From a virus (Duplodnaviria > Heunggongvirae > Uroviricota > Caudoviricetes): DNA of 64,000 bases. Every line of letters starts with the position of its first letter. Position 1 is the stretch's first letter. The position numbers were made by a program, and so were the translations under genes. Below are positions 281 through 9,929 of this stretch, in pieces. Below the pieces are notes generated by a model. The model was not told where the DNA came from and made no database searches. It saw only the letters and a program-made list of their open reading frames with translations. The stretch spans positions 1 through 64,000 of IMG/VR virus record IMGVR_UViG_3300044699_000054; one strand, given 5' to 3'.

Positions 281-323
281 AGGTAGCGGGGAACGGTCCG
301 CGCTACCGGAAGGGAGCGCAACC

Positions 324-560
324 ATGCTTACCATCCCGCCCGTGCACACGATCCTTGAGGCGTGCGAGTGTGGACGGCCGGCTATGCCGGACGTGGTAGT
401 GATCCAACACTGCGTGAATGAGGAGACCGGTGCGACGGCGACTCACGGGCCTGACAGGGTGTGTGAGGAGTGTGTGGTTGTGTGTGAGGATGACGCGGCG
501 CTAGGCGTGATCGTTCTGCACCTGCCATCCGAGACGTTCGAGCTGATCAGACTCAGCTAG
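324..560 (+). CDS. small Cys-rich hypothetical protein
   Basis: ATG at 324 preceded by a variant palindrome (GAACGGTCC, 291-299) and RBS GGAAGGGAG. Several CxxC-like Cys pairs (CECG, CEEC, VVVC). Confidence 0.5.
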   Translation: MLTIPPVHTILEACECGRPAMPDVVVIQHCVNEETGATATHGPDRVCEECVVVCEDDAALGVIVLHLPSETFELIRLS

Positions 561-639
561 CAGTGAACCGGGCGCCCAGTGATGGGTGCCCGGTTGCGAG
601 GACAGCCGACGGTCGACTGTCCAGAAGGGAGGGCCAGTC

Positions 640-861
640 ATGGCCGCATGTATCTCGTCCCACGAGGATGGCGATACAGGGACGGAGATCTATACCCGTC
701 CTGCCGACGATCATGCCCCCGGGCCAGACTGTCTGATCATGGCACGCTGCGTGCTGTGTGACGGCTTCATTCACTGCTGTGATGACGGCATGTCCTACCA
801 CGGCGCGGATGCGCACGTGGAGTGTGTCATCGGTCAGTACGACTCATCTGACCTGCAATGA
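640..861 (+). CDS. small Cys-rich hypothetical protein (possible paralog of 324..560)
   Basis: ATG at 640 lies 25 nt after CGACGGTCG (607-615) and an AGAAGGGAGG RBS. Cys-rich motifs CVLCDGFIHCCDD and HVEC. Confidence 0.5.
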   Translation: MAACISSHEDGDTGTEIYTRPADDHAPGPDCLIMARCVLCDGFIHCCDDGMSYHGADAHVECVIGQYDSSDLQ

Positions 862-933
862 TCGTCGCGGCCGTATCCGGTGACGGGTACGGCCGCACTA
901 GCGAGCGACGGTCGCTCGTGAAGGAAGGGAGCT

Positions 934-1326
934 ATGTCTCTCGATTTCAATGTCACAGGCTGCGCCAACCACGAGGAATTGTGGGACGGCGAGACGTGGC
1001 CACCGCCGGCAATGACAACCGTTATCGTGCACCTGTGCATGGGTATCGGTTGGGGCGAGATCACCGAGGCGAATGCTGAGGAGTGGTTCGCGCGAGTGTA
1101 CGCATGGGAGCGCGTCTATGGCCCGATGCTGCACGAATTCGACACGGACGAGGTAACGGTCAAGGACCGGTACATCACACCGGAGGACGTGCAGCGCTAC
1201 ATCGGGCTAGTGACGAACGTCTTTCCGAAGAGGTCAGACGCCGAGTTCCGTAAGCAGCTCGCCGCGCACCTGAAGGATCGAGCCGGATACATCTGGCGAG
1301 AGGCCATGAAACAGCCCGTGGCATGA
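934..1326 (+). CDS. hypothetical protein
   Basis: ATG 20 nt after CGACGGTCG (906-914) with RBS GGAAGGGAG. 130-aa ORF with coding-like composition. Confidence 0.55.
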   Translation: MSLDFNVTGCANHEELWDGETWPPPAMTTVIVHLCMGIGWGEITEANAEEWFARVYAWERVYGPMLHEFDTDEVTVKDRYITPEDVQRYIGLVTNVFPKRSDAEFRKQLAAHLKDRAGYIWREAMKQPVA

Positions 1327-1403
1327 CCGTAAGCCTGTGCCCGTTCACGCGGGCACAGGTGCGAGGATGGGCGACGGTCGCCCGTCCGGGAAGGGGTACG
1401 ACC

Positions 1404-1724
1404 ATGGGAATCATGGATGCCATCATGGGCGAGGCTATCGACCAGGATGCGTACGTGGATTACCAGACACTGCTCTATGCGGTACGGCGCACGATGTTCT
1501 GTGAGGACACGGGAGCGATCCTAGATGTCCGGCGCGCGGTGCTGTCCACGGTGAGGCTGCCAGACGGCGCGGCCGTCGCATTGATCCGTACGGATGAGGC
1601 GTTCGATAGGGTCGGTGGCGTGGATCTAGTCAAGGCCACGGCCGACCATTTCGGCGGCACGTATGAGGTTATCGACGGCCGTGACTTCACGGCTGACGGC
1701 AAGCTACGGGCAGCACGCGCGTAA
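1404..1724 (+). CDS. hypothetical protein
   Basis: ATG at 1404 after GGGCGACGGTCGCCC (1372-1380 core) and RBS GGGAAGGGG. The listed ORF start at 1323 is upstream of this module. Confidence 0.55.
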   Translation: MGIMDAIMGEAIDQDAYVDYQTLLYAVRRTMFCEDTGAILDVRRAVLSTVRLPDGAAVALIRTDEAFDRVGGVDLVKATADHFGGTYEVIDGRDFTADGKLRAARA

Positions 1725-1806
1725 GCGCATCACGGCCGCACAGGCGTAGACAGTGGCACGGGTACGGGCAACCGTACCCGTGCGCTCGATACCAAGCGAT
1801 CCCCAC

Positions 1807-7590: not shown

Positions 7591-7674
7591 CTAGTCGGAC
7601 CGGGCGCACTTGACCGTGCGTCCGGTTCCTAGTCCTATGTCGACGGTCGACAATGGACGGAAGGGAGGTCGGTA

Positions 7675-8034
7675 ATGCAATCGCTACCGATCGAAGTGTT
7701 ACGGGCGTTGATGCCGGCCGTGCAAGCAATCAGCGCGCATCAACGTGCAGCGGTCCGAGAGATCGAGCTACCGCGCATAGACCGCAAGGGTATGGCAGCC
7801 GCACGCGCGGCCGGAGGTGGAAAGTACGCCTACGGCCATCGGGAGATCATGGCAGCCGTCGGGTACATATCGCACATCGATCCCGATGATGACGACGAGG
7901 ATGACTCGTGTGGTAACTGCGGCTACGATCCGTGCCGATGCGAGTGGCACTGTGCCAGCTGTGAAGCGGAGGAATGCGAGGGAGCAGATTGCGAATGCTC
8001 GTGTGGCTACTGTGACTGGGAAGCCGACGAGTAG
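7675..8034 (+). CDS. acidic, Cys-rich small protein
   Basis: TGTCGACGGTCGACA (7641-7649 core), RBS GGAAGGGAGG, ATG 7675. C-terminus DDDDEDDSCGNCGYDPCRCEWHCASCEAEECEGADCECSCGYCDWEADE. Confidence 0.55.
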   Translation: MQSLPIEVLRALMPAVQAISAHQRAAVREIELPRIDRKGMAAARAAGGGKYAYGHREIMAAVGYISHIDPDDDDEDDSCGNCGYDPCRCEWHCASCEAEECEGADCECSCGYCDWEADE

Positions 8035-8109
8035 GGACCGAGGCTGGGTGTCCACACCGGACACTCAGCCGCTAGCCTGTCGACGGTCGGCAGGTGAGGA
8101 AGGGGTACG

Positions 8110-9012
8110 ATGATGAGGAACCGAACGGTTTTCCCATCGGACCATGCCGGTTGGATAGCGTATCTCGATCGTGGCCGTCTCAAGACGAAGACGTTCGATC
8201 GACCAATCGGCAGTAGCCGGACCAAACGTGTGCATCGATTCGCCAACGGCGATGTTGGGCTACGGTATCATGCCACGTACTGTGTGATCTTCCACGCCGA
8301 CGGTACCGTCACGTACGACACGGGAGGATGGCACACCATCACCACAAAGCAATTCATCAATGCCTATGGACCGACTAGGGTTTGGTCGGACAAGGGGCAG
8401 CTTTTCTTGCCGGTGCATAACCCGAGCTACACACCGGCAAAGGTCCAGAAGTGTCGCGTATGCCACGGCAAGGCGGTATTGCCGTCATCGTGCTACGGAC
8501 CGCGTTATTGCTACGCCGCGTATGGCGATCGCCCGTGTGTGCACGGCGAAGTGATCAACCATCGTTACACTACCTGTCCCCACGGGAAGACCGAGGGACA
8601 TCCGGTGCCAGATATTGCATGCTATCGTTGCAATGGCACCGGGAAACGTGACTACGGCAGTAAGCCCATACACTTTGAGTGGACTGGCAGTGCCTATCGG
8701 TTCCACCCTGACGACGTGGAGCACGGCATCTATCCGGGTAATCTGTCCGGATCCGTAGCTACGTCAGTAAGCTATGGGCAGGCTGGCAACGTTCTAACCC
8801 GACTCATTCCGGGACTGGACGAGCGGGTTACGTACCCATGTACATGCTTCGGACATGGGTATGACCCGTTGAGGGTACGCGACATGATCATTCACCTGAA
8901 TGACAGCCATCATCCGGCCCATGAAACGGCCGACGTGTGGTCGCGTGAACGCATTGCCGATTGGCTGGAGACGTTGGATGTTGACCTGCGTTTTCCGACG
9001 CCTGCGGAGTGA
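8110..9012 (+). CDS. Cys/His-rich protein with DnaJ-type CxxCxGxG zinc-finger-like motifs
   Basis: Hairpin 8049-8070, CCTGTCGACGGTCGGCAGG (8081-8089 core), RBS GAGGAAGGGG, ATG 8110. Motifs CRVCHGK, CYRCNGTGK, CPHGKTEGH. Confidence 0.55.
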   Translation: MMRNRTVFPSDHAGWIAYLDRGRLKTKTFDRPIGSSRTKRVHRFANGDVGLRYHATYCVIFHADGTVTYDTGGWHTITTKQFINAYGPTRVWSDKGQLFLPVHNPSYTPAKVQKCRVCHGKAVLPSSCYGPRYCYAAYGDRPCVHGEVINHRYTTCPHGKTEGHPVPDIACYRCNGTGKRDYGSKPIHFEWTGSAYRFHPDDVEHGIYPGNLSGSVATSVSYGQAGNVLTRLIPGLDERVTYPCTCFGHGYDPLRVRDMIIHLNDSHHPAHETADVWSRERIADWLETLDVDLRFPTPAE

Positions 9013-9096
9013 GGTCGCCCGGTACCGGAGAGATCCGGTGCCGGGTACGAGGATGGTTGAAACGGTCAACCGTCCCTAGTGGAGAGAGGAACGACC

Positions 9097-9330
9097 ATGA
9101 ACCAGACAGCTACCACGACCGAGGCGCGTCCGGCAAACCCGATCATCGATGAGCTGCGCGCTGAGCTGCGCGATATCGAGATCGATGTACTGTCGGCCTA
9201 CACCCTTGCCGATGCAATCCGCGAGGGTGCCAGGGTGACCACGCAGGCCAATGGCTGGGGGTCCGGCCGCGAGGCTTGCGCGCTCTCAGCCGCCTACCTG
9301 ACGGCTCACGCGCGGGGTTGGATCGAGTAG
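9097..9330 (+). CDS. hypothetical protein
   Basis: Hairpin 9016-9048, variant palindrome GGTTGAAACGGTCAACC (9056-9071), RBS GGAGAGAGG, ATG 9097. Confidence 0.5.
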   Translation: MNQTATTTEARPANPIIDELRAELRDIEIDVLSAYTLADAIREGARVTTQANGWGSGREACALSAAYLTAHARGWIE

Positions 9331-9416
9331 CACACAGGTCGGATGTCCACACCGGACATCCGGCCGCGATACCGGGCGACGGTCGTCCGGCATCAGAGAG
9401 GAAGGGGAGGTGATCT

Positions 9417-9929
9417 ATGCCACCCCGTGTGCGTCGGCTGGCCTATGTGTGGGTAGACACACCAGTCGGACAGATTGACGACGGGCCGCATGGCTTCACG
9501 TCCGACCATGCGTGCATAGAGGCTGCTCAATCGATGTGGGAGCAGCATCTAGGCGCATGGCTCATGCACAAAGCTGGCACGCTAGATCCGGGATTCCGGC
9601 TGCTCGAATGCGTGCAGGCTGACGGATTGGACCGATACCCACATCACAAGGAATGGCGACCAGGGATCGACGCCGCAATGCAGTGGGCCGGGATGGACCT
9701 CCCGACTCGCGGCGCCGTAGTGCACGACTACCGAACAGAGCGAGCGCGCGTGATCCGGTCCCGGACACGTACGCCGTTCCAGCGGGTAGAAGACATGGCC
9801 GTGCAAGCGGCCAAGCGTCAACGCGCATTCAACCGTGCCAGCCATCCTAGCCCGACAGACTCCGGTCCAGGGTCGATCGAATGGGCACCTGTGTTTGGCC
9901 CGTACTGTGCAGTCCCGTTGTCCCAGTAG
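9417..9929 (+). CDS. hypothetical protein (last gene of left block)
   Basis: Hairpin 9335-9360, CGACGGTCG 9377-9385, RBS GAGGAAGGGGAGG, ATG 9417. Followed by terminator hairpin 9959-9990. Confidence 0.55.
   Translation: MPPRVRRLAYVWVDTPVGQIDDGPHGFTSDHACIEAAQSMWEQHLGAWLMHKAGTLDPGFRLLECVQADGLDRYPHHKEWRPGIDAAMQWAGMDLPTRGAVVHDYRTERARVIRSRTRTPFQRVEDMAVQAAKRQRAFNRASHPSPTDSGPGSIEWAPVFGPYCAVPLSQ

What the first reader, a model, noticed from the sequence alone, without database searches (positions are those of the whole stretch)
291..9420. About 20 start-associated CGACGGTCG palindromes with covarying arms, one before nearly every early gene
Each copy lies 19-33 nt upstream of an ATG and about 5-10 nt upstream of a GGAAGGGAG-type RBS, always in the same orientation. 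The 9-bp core (or variants GGACGGTCC, GAACGGTCC, AACGGTC) is conserved. The flanking 3-6 nt arms differ between copies yet remain complementary (CTGGCG...CGCCAG, CAGGCG...CGCCTG, CCTGCC...GGCAGG, GTCCCG...CGGGAC, CTGTG...CACAG). That compensatory pattern argues for a conserved RNA (or cruciform) hairpin with a GACGGUC-type loop in every 5'-UTR, rather than a fixed-sequence protein site. It could be a translational control element, an endoribonuclease processing signal for the polycistronic early transcript, or the target of a phage RNA-binding regulator. I do not recognise this exact motif from described start-associated sequences.
Basis: seen in the sequence. Interest (0 to 1): 0.85.

Follow-up and report, generated by a model that had tools for sequence, protein, structure and literature searches.

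The report
Conserved RNA hairpin tagging phage early genes
Nearly every early gene of this uncultivated actinobacterial phage, and of at least five other phage lineages found in metagenomes, is preceded by the same small RNA hairpin with an invariant tip and freely co-varying stem; the hairpin is part of a portable inter-gene cassette that also marks where gene cassettes have been swapped, and neither its reader nor its function is known.

Summary
The window holds 20 copies, all on the + strand at 282-9394: 16 exact CGACGGTCG (0.87 expected by chance) and 4 variants. None lies in the other 54 kb. Twenty of 22 early genes have a copy.

The same element occurs 205 times (79 distinct sequences) in the window plus 23 metagenomic or viral contigs from at least six lineages. 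The apex GACGGTC never varies. Stem positions ±4 to ±9 co-vary, with 4-6 pair types at each of ±5 to ±9 (covariation 0.77 against 0.15 in shuffles). Non-Watson-Crick pairs are G·U on the sense strand 31 times and A·C once. Orientation follows gene direction even in a divergent locus. It is therefore a sense-strand RNA hairpin of 8-9 bp with a CGG triloop, not a duplex protein site.

It belongs to an ~85-90 nt cassette: stop-codon box, a GNRA/UNCG-capped hairpin without a U-tract, this hairpin, then a strong GGAAGGGAG Shine-Dalgarno sequence. It begins 0-8 nt after a promoter start, a tRNA-like 3' end or the upstream hairpin. Homology breakpoints between relatives fall on the cassettes, as with PeSL elements.

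The function is inferred: a class-specific 5'-UTR tag read by an unidentified factor. It has no Rfam family, was not found in the searchable literature, and was not found in the cultured-phage collection by the searches I could run.

The parts
245..274 (+). Promoter P1, sigma-70-like (TGACAA, 18 nt, extended -10 TGgTATAGT). The first hairpin starts 8 nt after the -10 hexamer.
   Evidence: Sequence. It shares the box GACAAAATGTG...ATGGTAT..TGATAC with P2. The same promoter-then-hairpin layout is seen in relatives.
282..307 (+). H2 copy 1, variant apex GA-ACGG-UC. It is promoter-proximal and has no H1 upstream.
563..597 (+). H1 hairpin with GTGA (GNRA) tetraloop and no T-run
600..622 (+). H2 copy 2 (C/A mismatch at ±5; the relative L260 has T-A there)
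867..896 (+). H1 hairpin, GTGA loop
901..919 (+). H2 copy 3
1328..1363 (+). H1 hairpin; the upstream stop codon lies in TGACCGT (1323-1329)
1365..1387 (+). H2 copy 4 (U·G at ±8)
1806..1835 (+). Promoter P2, sigma-70-like with TG-extended -10. It is followed by a ~110 nt structured non-coding leader.
1944..1964 (+). H1 hairpin, GTGA loop
1974..1994 (+). H2 copy 5 (G·U at ±5)
2280..2312 (+). H1 hairpin, GCGA loop
2313..2337 (+). H2 copy 6 (12 bp stem)
2621..2650 (+). H1 hairpin, GTGA loop
2655..2673 (+). H2 copy 7
2864..2896 (+). H1 hairpin, GCAA loop
2897..2921 (+). H2 copy 8, GGACGGTCC core (±4 pair flipped to G-C)
3144..3176 (+). H1 hairpin, GCAA loop
3178..3202 (+). H2 copy 9 (G·U at ±5)
3578..3610 (+). 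H1 hairpin
3615..3637 (+). H2 copy 10. It has a U/C mismatch at ±7. The left arm resembles copy 11 and the right arm resembles copy 4, so it may be a recombinant.
3999..4026 (+). H1 hairpin, GCAA loop
4031..4051 (+). H2 copy 11
4311..4340 (+). H1 hairpin, GTGA loop
4345..4365 (+). H2 copy 12 (same hairpin sequence as copy 5)
4682..4715 (+). H1 hairpin, GTGA loop; the upstream stop lies in TGACCGT
4719..4737 (+). H2 copy 13, GGACGGTCC core, before the DUF2637 gene
5698..5726 (+). Promoter P3 (CGACAA, 17 nt, TGaTACACT). It is followed by a ~160 nt non-coding leader.
5887..5914 (+). H1 hairpin, GCGA loop
5919..5939 (+). H2 copy 14 (U·G at ±7)
6291..6320 (+). H1 hairpin
6328..6346 (+). H2 copy 15
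6633..6660 (+). H1 hairpin, GCAA loop
6666..6684 (+). H2 copy 16
7597..7628 (+). H1 hairpin
7638..7652 (+). H2 copy 17 (shortest stem, 7 positions)
8043..8069 (+). H1 hairpin
8076..8094 (+). H2 copy 18 (U·G at ±5; the relative L232 has U-A there)
9017..9046 (+). H1 hairpin, GAGA (GNRA) loop
9051..9075 (+). H2 copy 19, variant apex GA-AACGG-UC
9337..9365 (+). H1 hairpin
9368..9394 (+). H2 copy 20 (G·U at ±5)
9957..10002 (+). The only canonical intrinsic terminator (15-bp hairpin plus T-rich tail) on the + strand of the early region. It marks the end of the early operon.

Best explanation
The element (H2) is an RNA stem-loop formed by the sense transcript. It has an 8-9 bp stem, longer in some window copies. 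The top three pairs (C-G or G-C, then G-C, then A-U) and the CGG triloop are invariant, and the lower stem is free to vary provided it pairs.

H2 is the 5' edge of each early cistron. It sits inside a portable ~85-90 nt inter-cistronic cassette with four parts:
- the upstream stop codon, often inside a TGACCGT box;
- H1, a very stable hairpin capped by a GNRA or UNCG tetraloop and lacking a U-tract;
- H2, 0-6 nt further on;
- a strong GGAAGGGAG Shine-Dalgarno sequence 0-10 nt after H2, with the start codon about 27 nt after the H2 centre.

Three host-type promoters drive polycistronic early RNA through about 20 such cassettes to one canonical terminator.

Inferred mechanism: H2 is a class-specific tag on early messages, and its invariant apex is read by a trans-acting factor, either an early or middle phage protein or a host protein. 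The hairpin always starts within a few nucleotides of a transcript or processing boundary and ends next to the ribosome-binding site. It could also switch translation of all early genes on or off together.

As a by-product, the repeated cassettes are the homologous sequences at which ORFan gene cassettes are deleted, inserted and exchanged between related phages.

Shown: the RNA-strand hairpin, the cassette anatomy, restriction to early genes, spread across lineages, and breakpoints at cassettes.
For: Enrichment and restriction:
- 16 exact copies against 0.87 expected.
- The covariance model finds none outside 597-9395.

One IMG/VR contig that shares almost no detectable DNA similarity with the window also carries it (one 163-bp, 69% match).

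RNA and sense strand:
- GACGGTC is invariant in all copies.
- The ±4 pair is C-G in 63 sequences and G-C in 16.
- Positions ±5 to ±9 are Watson-Crick in 355 of 395 cells, G·U in 31 and A·C in 1.
- Covariation is 0.771 against 0.149 in shuffles and 0.04-0.16 in slid registers.
- 199 of 223 unselected cores have paired arms.
- Orientation follows gene direction on both arms of the divergent locus L277.
- H1 loops are GNRA (63) or UNCG (24) out of 109 tetraloops, against 2 for the antisense equivalent.

Position at 5' boundaries:
- In four lineages with clear consensus promoters (and probably a fifth, L277 + arm, whose -35 is unclear) the first copy begins 8-13 nt after a -10 hexamer, about +1 to +7 of the transcript.
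- In four loci a copy begins 3-7 nt after the CCA-C end of a tRNA-like RNA.
- Elsewhere it begins 0-6 nt after H1.
- A closely spaced downstream gene with no H1 has no H2 (window 5472).

Polycistronic layout: there are 3 promoters, 19 H1 hairpins without a T-run, and one hairpin-plus-T-run terminator at 9957-10002.

A trans reader rather than plain structure: the apex is constant across lineages whose arms and H1 differ. Breaking H2 in silico does not change predicted SD accessibility (0.497 against 0.489 and 0.492).

Cassette exchange: homology between the window and L284, L232, L281, L214, L260 and L321 ends 4-20 nt after an H2 centre and resumes 38-45 nt before one. Genes are deleted (3654-3992), inserted (L232 650-1115) or replaced (2007-2273; 8110-9330).

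Established knowledge, not tested here: 5'-terminal stem-loops protect mRNA from 5'-end-dependent RNase E and RNase J, and T4 RegA and RegB act on early mRNAs as a class.
Against: - No reader was identified. Every early protein tested lacks Pfam, PHROG or PDB annotation. The only proteins shared by all lineages are a DUF2637 membrane protein and a lipoprotein-like protein, neither an obvious RNA binder, and the lipoprotein-like gene is frameshifted in the window.
- There are no expression data, so 5' ends, processing and read-through of H1 are all inferred.
- A G·T wobble is also tolerated in single-stranded DNA, so for H2 alone the wobble asymmetry does not formally separate RNA from non-template ssDNA. 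The RNA argument leans partly on the H1 loops.
- The stop-codon box TGACCGT is the pairing partner of the apex, and RNAfold prefers a long-range helix in 3 of 20 window cassettes. Part of the conservation could therefore serve a cis-acting switch rather than a protein.
- Copies within one genome are often near-identical (L249, L219, L131), so the 205 copies are not 205 independent events.
Confidence: 0.55

Rival explanations
1. Antitermination loading site, working like lambda nut/boxB or HK022 put. H2 in the nascent RNA recruits an N-like protein, or acts directly on RNA polymerase, so that the polymerase reads through the next U-less H1 hairpin. A site is repeated before every gene so the complex is recharged at each cassette.
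For: - The first H2 lies directly downstream of a promoter, and every H2 precedes the next H1.
- An invariant apex on a co-varying stem is the boxB pattern.
- H1 and H2 are 0-6 nt apart, as the two put stem-loops are.
- From memory, not checked here: U-less hairpins in the phiC31 early region were reported to terminate (Ingham, Hunter and Smith 1995). If so, 19 H1 hairpins in series would need suppression.
Against: - No boxA-like linear element is conserved next to H2 across lineages.
- No arginine-rich N-like protein is conserved, and the first gene differs between lineages.
- The operon ends in a normal hairpin-plus-U-tract terminator, which suggests that the host polymerase needs a U-tract and that H1 is not a terminator.
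- The tight coupling of H2 to the SD and start codon (median 27 nt) is not required for antitermination.
Confidence: 0.15
2. A purely cis-acting RNA switch with no trans reader. The stop-codon box (U)GACCGUC pairs with the apex GACGGUC when the upstream gene is not being translated. Terminating ribosomes free the box, H2 forms, and the downstream site becomes active. This would be translational coupling across an ~85 nt gap.
For: - The upstream stop codon is the TGA of TGACCGT in 53 of 155 cassettes and lies 45-63 nt before the H2 centre.
- GACCGT boxes peak at -60 to -70.
- GACCGUC is the exact complement of the apex.
- The RNAfold MFE prefers a long-range helix in window cassettes 4355, 6675 and 8085.
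Against: - Promoter-proximal copies and most window cassettes (12 of 17) lack the box yet keep the apex.
- The second box is inverted, direct or GACAGT depending on lineage.
- A self-contained pairing could drift between lineages, but the apex is invariant in all of them.
- Predicted SD accessibility does not depend on H2.
Confidence: 0.1
3. A duplex-DNA operator for a dimeric phage repressor, like the mycobacteriophage L5 stoperators or the phiC31 conserved inverted repeats. The protein binds CGAC-N-GTCG before each gene and blocks transcription.
For: - The core is a near-palindrome.
- There are many intergenic copies, one per gene, oriented with transcription, and the first overlaps +5 to +30 of a promoter.
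- Extra GACNGT boxes lie upstream in many cassettes.
- A different viral contig (L099) carries a fixed palindrome AAAGTGCGACGGTCGCACTTT that does look like an operator.
Against: - The arms outside the core are not conserved in sequence but stay complementary.
- G·U outnumbers A·C by 31 to 1 on the sense strand.
- The central base is always G on the coding strand, also in divergent operons.
- The variants insert one or two A residues in the loop, which would break half-site spacing.
- No repressor-like or HTH protein was detected.
Confidence: 0.04
4. A single-stranded DNA hairpin. It would be either a promoter for a virion RNA polymerase (as in phage N4) or a structure-specific recombination site that mobilises gene cassettes (as integron attC sites do).
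For: - It is a short stem with a 3-nt loop, like N4 early promoters.
- A giant 2986-aa ORF sits beside the head gene.
- Cassette-wise gene gain and loss has breakpoints at the element.
Against: - The wobble pairs are on the non-template strand, so the template strand would carry 31 A·C mismatches.
- The giant ORF has no Pfam hit and no PDB sequence hit, including to the N4 polymerase.
- Host-type promoters sit immediately upstream of the first copy.
- The H1 tetraloops show RNA-level selection in the same cassette.
- Breakpoints spread over the whole ~60 nt cassette rather than one crossover point.
- No integrase was seen in the early loci.
Confidence: 0.05
5. A substrate for a known host endoribonuclease only, in the manner of the RNase III sites between T7 early genes. 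H1 plus H2 together would be cut to give monocistronic mRNAs, with no phage-specific reader.
For: - The element is inter-cistronic in an early polycistronic operon.
- H1 and H2 are adjacent and could stack into about 20 bp.
- A tRNA-like RNA can replace H1, as in tRNA-punctuated transcripts.
Against: - H2 alone (8-9 bp) is too short for RNase III, and promoter-proximal copies lack H1.
- RNase III does not need an invariant loop sequence.
Confidence: 0.08

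Closest known systems
Start-associated sequences and extended SAS (SAS/ESAS) of cluster K mycobacteriophages (Pope et al. 2011, PMC3203893; still without a tested function in 2025, PMC12699233)
   Same: A repeated motif sits just upstream of the start codons of a subset of non-structural genes of an actinobacteriophage. 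It lies in one orientation, has 10-20 copies per genome, has an inverted-repeat component, and has an unknown function suspected to concern translation.
   Different: - SAS is a 13-nt asymmetric, SD-containing sequence (GGGATAGGAGCCC), which is absent here.
- ESAS has conserved 17-bp arms and a variable 4-13 bp spacer. Here the pattern is the reverse: the apex is invariant and the arms vary while co-varying.
- The present element is tied to an upstream GNRA/UNCG hairpin and to cassette breakpoints.
PeSL (promoter-early stem-loop) cassettes of T4-like phages (Arbiol et al. 2010, PMC2839356; Comeau et al. 2014, PMC4122927)
   Same: Short, repeated, composite regulatory cassettes flank small ORFan genes in early, hyperplastic regions. 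Insertions, deletions and replacements between close relatives have their breakpoints in the cassettes.
   Different: - A PeSL is a sigma-70 promoter plus a terminator. Here only 3 promoters serve about 20 cassettes, the stem-loop lacks a U-tract, and the conserved part is an RNA hairpin apex next to the SD.
- The host phylum and phage group differ.
- Mini-circles were not tested.
Lambda nut boxB / HK022 put antitermination RNAs
   Same: A small promoter-proximal RNA hairpin whose loop is conserved and whose stem may co-vary, read co-transcriptionally, in phage early operons that contain hairpin terminators.
   Different: - boxB has a 5-bp stem and a GNRA-like pentaloop, with an adjacent boxA, at two sites per genome.
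- Here the stem is 8-9 bp with a CGG triloop, no boxA is present, there is one site per gene, and the site is locked to the SD.
T7 early-region RNase III processing sites, and T4 RegA/RegB class-wide control of early mRNAs
   Same: Post-transcriptional punctuation or class-specific control of polycistronic early phage mRNA through a signal repeated at each cistron's 5' region.
   Different: - RNase III sites are ~20+ bp irregular helices without a conserved loop.
- RegB and RegA recognise linear GGAG or AU-rich sites, not a hairpin apex.
Mycobacteriophage L5 stoperators / phiC31 conserved inverted repeats (recalled from memory, not re-read here)
   Same: Many intergenic copies, oriented with transcription, lie in the early region of an actinophage. 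The phiC31 early region also has U-less hairpins.
   Different: Those are fixed duplex DNA sites bound by the repressor. Here the arms co-vary, wobble pairs are strand-specific, and loop-length variants exist.

Membership tests
Rfam families (any) | Match to a curated covariance model | tested here: not met
   The only hits were a sub-threshold malK-III match (29 bits against 50) inside a gene on the opposite strand, and a mir-939 chance match. Nothing lies at the hairpins.
Cluster K SAS/ESAS | 13-nt SAS GGGATAGGAGCCC 3-8 nt before the start codon | tested here: not met
   0 matches in the window with up to 2 mismatches. The near-start conserved element here is GGAAGGGAG.
Cluster K SAS/ESAS | ESAS: conserved 17-bp inverted-repeat arms with a variable 4-13 bp spacer | tested here: not met
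   The pattern is reversed: a 7-nt invariant centre with arms variable in sequence. ESAS definition from PMC3203893.
Cluster K SAS/ESAS | Restricted to non-structural genes, one orientation, start-associated | tested here: met
PeSL cassettes | Each cassette contains a strong sigma-70 early promoter | tested here: not met
   The window has only P1, P2 and P3 for 20 cassettes. There is no -10/-35 pair inside the cassettes.
PeSL cassettes | Stem-loop that terminates transcription | tested here: inconclusive
   H1 is very stable (median -30 kcal/mol for the 53-nt region) but has no T-run. The only hairpin with a T-run is at the operon end. Termination cannot be measured here.
PeSL cassettes | Indels and replacements between close relatives have breakpoints in the cassettes | tested here: met
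PeSL cassettes | Excised mini-circles | not testable with these tools
   Needs PCR or read-level data.
Lambda-type nut site | boxB: 5-bp stem with a GNRA-like pentaloop, plus a linear boxA | tested here: not met
   The stem is 8-9 bp with a CGG triloop. No conserved linear box lies adjacent across lineages.
Lambda-type nut site | N-like arginine-rich antiterminator encoded early | tested here: inconclusive
   No conserved small basic protein was found, but the contigs are partial. The DUF2637 protein has a basic C-terminal tail.
Stoperator / CIR operators | Fixed-sequence duplex site, with no need for complementarity outside it and no strand-specific wobble | tested here: not met
N4-type hairpin promoters | Hairpin forms on the template strand | tested here: not met
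   31 G·U against 1 A·C on the non-template strand.
N4-type hairpin promoters | Giant virion RNA polymerase with a T7-like catalytic domain | tested here: not met
   The 2986-aa ORF has no Pfam family and no PDB sequence match. This is a sequence-level test only.
T7-type RNase III sites | About 20 bp or more of double-stranded RNA with an internal loop | tested here: not met
   H2 is 8-12 bp and H1 is 9-13 bp.
Integron attC | ssDNA-folded site with R/L boxes and extrahelical bases, plus an IntI integrase | not tested
   No integrase was seen in the early loci, and breakpoints are spread over the cassette. No dedicated attC model was run.

The most novel reading that the evidence does not exclude
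These phages use a dedicated hairpin-addressed mRNA punctuation system. An apex-specific RNA-binding protein or endoribonuclease recognises GA-CGG-UC on a stem of fixed length, in the way Cas6/Csy4 or Rnt1p recognise their hairpins. It cuts or caps the RNA at the stem base. A polycistronic early transcript thereby becomes a set of monocistronic messages, each bounded by H2 at the 5' end and a GNRA/UNCG hairpin at the 3' end, and the whole early class can be switched together. The same ~90 nt unit would act as a plug-and-play expression cassette, letting any captured ORF be expressed at once and shuffled between phages.
Probability: 0.2. Interest if true: 0.85.

Novelty: new variant of a known kind. 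Interest (0 to 1): 0.72.

Why it matters
Repeated start-associated motifs in actinobacteriophages have been known since 2011 without a mechanism. This family provides something those lack: clear evidence of selection on an RNA structure (covariation, sense-strand wobble, RNA-specific tetraloops) together with an invariant 7-nt apex that implies a specific reader.

That turns a vague motif into a testable system. The hairpin is small enough for pull-downs, reporter assays and compensatory mutagenesis.

The breakpoint data also extend regulatory-cassette-mediated gene shuffling, described so far for T4-like phages, to a different phage group with a different kind of cassette. The cassette itself is a candidate portable expression part for actinobacterial synthetic biology.

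Tried and rejected
- N4-like hairpin promoter with the giant ORF as virion polymerase. Rejected: the wobble pairs are on the wrong strand and the ORF has no polymerase similarity in Pfam or the PDB.
- Known RNA family. Rfam gave nothing at the hairpins, at permissive E-values, on the window and on five loci.
- H2 as a structural insulator that keeps the SD open. Complementing or shuffling the 5' arm in 183 cassettes leaves the predicted unpaired probability of the SD unchanged (0.497 against 0.489 and 0.492, not significant).
- A start-codon hairpin (H3, for example GGCCAGCGATGGCC) as a general cassette part. Enrichment is only weak (stems of 6 bp or more: 15 observed, 5.9 expected), so it is treated as facultative.
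- The tRNA-like element as a true tRNA or tmRNA. Aragorn was negative, and Rfam matched only the T-arm.
- Cultured relatives. There was no megablast hit, no hit to a cassette consensus and no DUF2637 homologue in 50,697 phage records. Microbacterium phage Shocker shares a distant 144-aa protein but has no H2.
- Host or prophage use. A genome scan of 185,579 species representatives gave only single, mostly unpaired chance hits.
- Other IMG/VR hits to the 9-mer (L037/L111 arrays, L041/L059/L042 coding repeats, the L099 fixed palindrome) are unrelated features. The lineage X/Y hairpin consensus has no IMG/VR match.
- Candidate reader by annotation. 37 window ORFs or family proteins scanned in Pfam (7 of them, plus 10 family representatives, also in PHROGs) gave only DUF2637, DUF6197, a methyltransferase, structural proteins (head, tape measure, a phosphodiesterase-like tail-region hit) and unnamed PHROG families.
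- Literature. Searches for CGACGGTCG and GACGGUC returned only primers and miRNAs.
- The phiC31 operator and terminator papers could not be retrieved and are cited from memory only.

Full report
OBSERVATION

The 9-mer CGACGGTCG occurs 16 times in the 64 kb window. All copies are on the + strand between 607 and 9385, against 0.87 expected from dinucleotide shuffles. Reading the region adds four variants. Two are GGACGGTCC, centred at 2909 and 4728. One has an extra A (GGGAACGGTCCG, 295) and one has two extra A (GAAACGGTC, 9062).

A covariance model scored over the whole window with filters off finds 18 hits at E<0.03. All are on the + strand within 597-9395, and nothing lies in the other 54 kb. 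Twenty of 22 early ORFs carry a copy. The central G lies 23-37 nt before the start codon. The exact Shine-Dalgarno sequence (SD) GGAAGGGAG occurs eight times in the early region and once elsewhere.

WHAT THE WINDOW IS

The window comes from a tailed phage of Actinobacteria that is only distantly related to cultured ones. Its major head protein is at most 41% identical to that of Actinoplanes phage phiAsp2, over about 65% of its length. Other hits are to Microbacterium, Gordonia and Mycobacterium phages. There is no megablast match. Structural genes, a tape-measure gene and a 2986-aa ORF lie on the minus strand of 28-64 kb. The first 10 kb is a + strand block of small ORFan genes.

THE ELEMENT IS ONE PART OF A CASSETTE

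Each intergenic region has the same plan:
- the stop codon of the upstream gene;
- a GC-rich hairpin, H1, with no T-run after it;
- a 0-7 nt linker, often GCGAG, GCGAT or GCTAG;
- the hairpin in question, H2;
- the SD, then the start codon.

RNAfold gives H2 an 8-12 bp stem with a CGG triloop (ACGG at 295, AACGG at 9062).

Three sigma-70-like promoters with related sequences lie at 245-274, 1806-1835 and 5698-5726. The only hairpin followed by a T-run on the + strand is at 9957-10002, at the end of the block. The layout is therefore three promoters, about 20 cassettes and one canonical terminator.

THE FAMILY

A pattern scan of IMG/VR found one other contig, IMGVR_UViG_3300048896_000122. It has 11 copies at one end, starting directly after a consensus TTGACA-17-TATACT promoter. 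It shares almost no detectable DNA similarity with the window (one 163-bp, 69% match) and only two proteins.

Together with the window and the IMG/VR contig, this gives 205 copies and 79 distinct 23-mers, from at least six groups with little or no DNA similarity to one another.

Three searches for the family elsewhere were negative:
- No multi-copy locus appeared among 185,579 species-representative genomes.
- No relative was found among 50,697 cultured-phage records.
- Microbacterium phage Shocker, which shares a distant 144-aa protein, has no H2.

IS IT AN RNA HAIRPIN OR A DUPLEX SITE?

Across the 79 distinct copies, GACGGTC never varies. The ±4 pair is C-G in 63 sequences and G-C in 16. Positions ±5 to ±9 each show 4-6 pair types.

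For the structure with pairs at ±2 to ±9, 98.6% of cells are standard pairs, against 65.9% in shuffles. The covariation score is 0.771 against 0.149, and 0 of 500 shuffles reach it. The same measure with the 3' partner slid by 1-3 columns gives 0.04-0.16. My copy list required at least 4 of 5 arm pairs. However, of 223 unselected sense-strand cores in the family loci, 182 have 5 of 5 arm pairs and 17 have 4 of 5, so the bias is small.

At ±5 to ±9 the non-Watson-Crick cells are G·U on the sense strand 31 times, A·C once and other 8 times. On the opposite strand those 31 cells would be A·C mismatches. The central base is G on the coding strand in every copy. In locus L277 two divergent operons carry 13 copies on one strand and 7 on the other, each oriented with its own genes.

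The adjacent H1 has a tetraloop in 109 of 168 distinct cassettes. Of these, 63 are GNRA and 24 are UNCG, against 2 that would be GNRA on the other strand. Those loop classes stabilise RNA specifically.

Taken together, the cassette is selected as sense-strand RNA. A symmetric duplex protein site is excluded for the arms and is unlikely for the core. The N4-type model (template-strand DNA hairpin plus giant virion polymerase) fails on the strand, and the giant ORF has no polymerase similarity.

WHERE H2 SITS IN THE TRANSCRIPT

In four lineages with clear consensus promoters, and probably a fifth (the L277 + arm, whose -35 element is unclear), the first copy begins 8-13 nt after a -10 hexamer. 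That is about +1 to +7 of the primary transcript, and these copies have no H1.

In four loci one copy begins 3-7 nt after the CCA-C end of a promoter-driven RNA whose 3' part looks like a tRNA or tmRNA T-arm and acceptor strand. Elsewhere H2 begins 0-6 nt after H1. A closely spaced downstream gene with no H1 has no H2 (window 5472).

H2 is therefore always the first structure after a transcript start or a likely 3'-end-forming structure. It always ends just before the SD. The upstream stop codon lies 45-63 nt before the H2 centre, and in 53 of 155 cassettes it is the TGA of TGACCGT.

CASSETTES ARE RECOMBINATION BREAKPOINTS

Nine loci are 83-99% identical to parts of the window. Their homology blocks end 4-20 nt after an H2 centre and resume 38-45 nt before one. 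Between such points genes are:
- missing (window 3654-3992 in L284 and L281);
- added (L232 650-1115);
- replaced (window 2007-2273 in L281, L214, L260 and L321; window 8110-9330 in L232).

This is the behaviour described for PeSL cassettes of T4-like phages (PMC2839356, PMC4122927). Those cassettes, however, are promoter plus terminator.

MECHANISM

Shown: a sense-strand RNA hairpin with an invariant apex, restricted to early genes, at the 5' edge of each cistron, inside a portable cassette that is also a recombination substrate.

Inferred: the apex is read by a trans-acting factor. The argument is that arms, H1 and linkers all differ between lineages while the 7-nt apex and the C-G/G-C pair below it do not. 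A purely structural role does not explain that. Breaking H2 in silico does not change predicted SD accessibility.

This rests on established RNase E and RNase J biology and was not tested here.

All early proteins are unannotated. Only a DUF2637 membrane protein and a lipoprotein-like protein are shared by every lineage.

Rivals that remain open:
- A nut/put-like antitermination signal. It fits the promoter-proximal position and the series of H1 hairpins. It is weakened by the canonical terminator at the operon end and by the lock to the SD.
- A cis-acting coupling switch between the stop-codon box GACCGUC and the complementary apex. It is supported by box statistics and by three RNAfold predictions. 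It is weakened because most window cassettes and all promoter-proximal copies lack the box.

COMPARISON WITH KNOWN SYSTEMS

The closest described features are the SAS/ESAS repeats of cluster K mycobacteriophages. They share the host phylum, start association, single orientation and unknown function (PMC3203893, PMC12699233). The SAS sequence is absent here, and the ESAS conservation pattern is the reverse of this one.

PeSLs share the cassette-shuffling behaviour but not the content. boxB shares the conserved-loop, co-varying-stem logic but not the shape, copy number or SD linkage.

I file the element as a new variant of a known kind: a repeated start-associated regulatory cassette of phage early regions. 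It is a new RNA motif family with no Rfam entry, and I found no description of it in the searchable literature.

LIMITS

- There are no expression data.
- Most relatives are short contigs.
- Copies within a genome are often near-identical, so they are not independent.
- The shuffle controls do not correct for relatedness.
- The phiC31 comparisons are from memory.

Noticed in passing
L219 (- strand) ~450-612; L249 (-) ~1260-1415; L277 (-) ~2800-2965; L131 ~960-1112: Four lineages encode a structured RNA of ~110-170 nt. In L219 it follows a consensus promoter (TTGACA...TATAAT). It ends in a tRNA/tmRNA-like T-arm (GGTTCGACTCCGG), an acceptor-like strand and CCA-C, 3-7 nt before an H2 hairpin. Aragorn finds no tRNA or tmRNA, and Rfam matches only the T-arm. 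It may be a new tRNA-like small RNA that serves as a processing point.
   Followed up: partly
window 1836-1943 and 5727-5886: Promoters P2 and P3 are followed by ~110 and ~160 nt of hairpin-rich sequence that does not appear to be coding (one short ORF, 5749-5970, overlaps the second leader and the next cassette), before the next cassette. Relatives have a gene cassette or a 367-nt insertion at these places (L284 ~2818; L214 1509-1876). These may be leader RNAs, small RNAs or remnants of lost cassettes.
   Followed up: no
window 1-19 and 9940-11909; L260, L321, L312, L329, L330, L331, L232: In six related contigs the DNA directly left of window position 1 is the reverse complement of window 9982-11909. 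The last codons of their 204-aa gene are encoded by window 1-19. In the window the same gene lies inverted after the early block and ends inside the terminator palindrome. Contig L232 stops at window 9940. Three readings are possible: the ~10 kb early block is inverted relative to its flank, it is flanked by inverted repeats, or the window's source contig starts at a repeat boundary.
   Followed up: partly
window 5957-6284: The lipoprotein-like early gene (signal peptide with lipobox, conserved in all lineages) is frameshifted in the window by one extra T near 6022, relative to the intact 109-aa gene of L284. This is either a pseudogene or a sequencing error.
   Followed up: yes
window 6706-7590: A 294-aa early protein consists largely of about 25 tandem G(F/Y)(D/N)R(D/E)G(Y/F)-type repeats. 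Its only Pfam hit is a sub-threshold zinc-ribbon match.
   Followed up: no
window 55037-63997 (- strand): A 2986-aa ORF, with its start taken at the first TTG after an upstream stop (63997), lies next to the major head gene (52488-54221). It has no Pfam family and no PDB sequence match, and only a weak hit to an unnamed PHROG.
   Followed up: partly
family loci, 45-70 nt upstream of the H2 centre; window 1323-1329, 2863-2875, 4666-4672, 6625-6630: GACNGT boxes occur upstream of H1. The upstream gene's stop codon is often the TGA of TGACCGT, whose RNA is the exact complement of the H2 apex. A second box is GACGGT (inverted, forming a small hairpin with the first) in L219, L131 and L311. It is GACCGT (direct repeat) in L249 and GACAGT in L302 and L277. 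The role is unexplained.
   Followed up: partly
start codons of many cassettes, e.g. window 631-647, 5945-5962, 6695-6715; L249 and L131 GGCCAGCGATGGCC: In a minority of cassettes the start codon sits in or at the edge of the loop of a small hairpin formed by the SD-start spacer and the first codons. Stems of 6 bp or more: 15 observed against about 6 expected.
   Followed up: partly
L037 / L111 (IMG/VR), L099 (IMG/VR): The same 9-mer occurs in unrelated repeat systems. One is a ~110-bp repeat unit (GTGAGCCCGGCA...GGGTTTCA...GGCCGGGCTCGACGGTCGCA) present 9-12 times, spaced 108-969 bp apart, in a 51% GC contig. The other is four copies of a fixed palindrome, AAAGTGCGACGGTCGCACTTT, that looks like an operator.
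   Followed up: no
window 32321-33574 (- strand): A C-methyltransferase-type gene (Methyltransf_14/13/23 domains) lies inside the phage structural and late region. It is probably a sugar or small-molecule modification gene.
   Followed up: no
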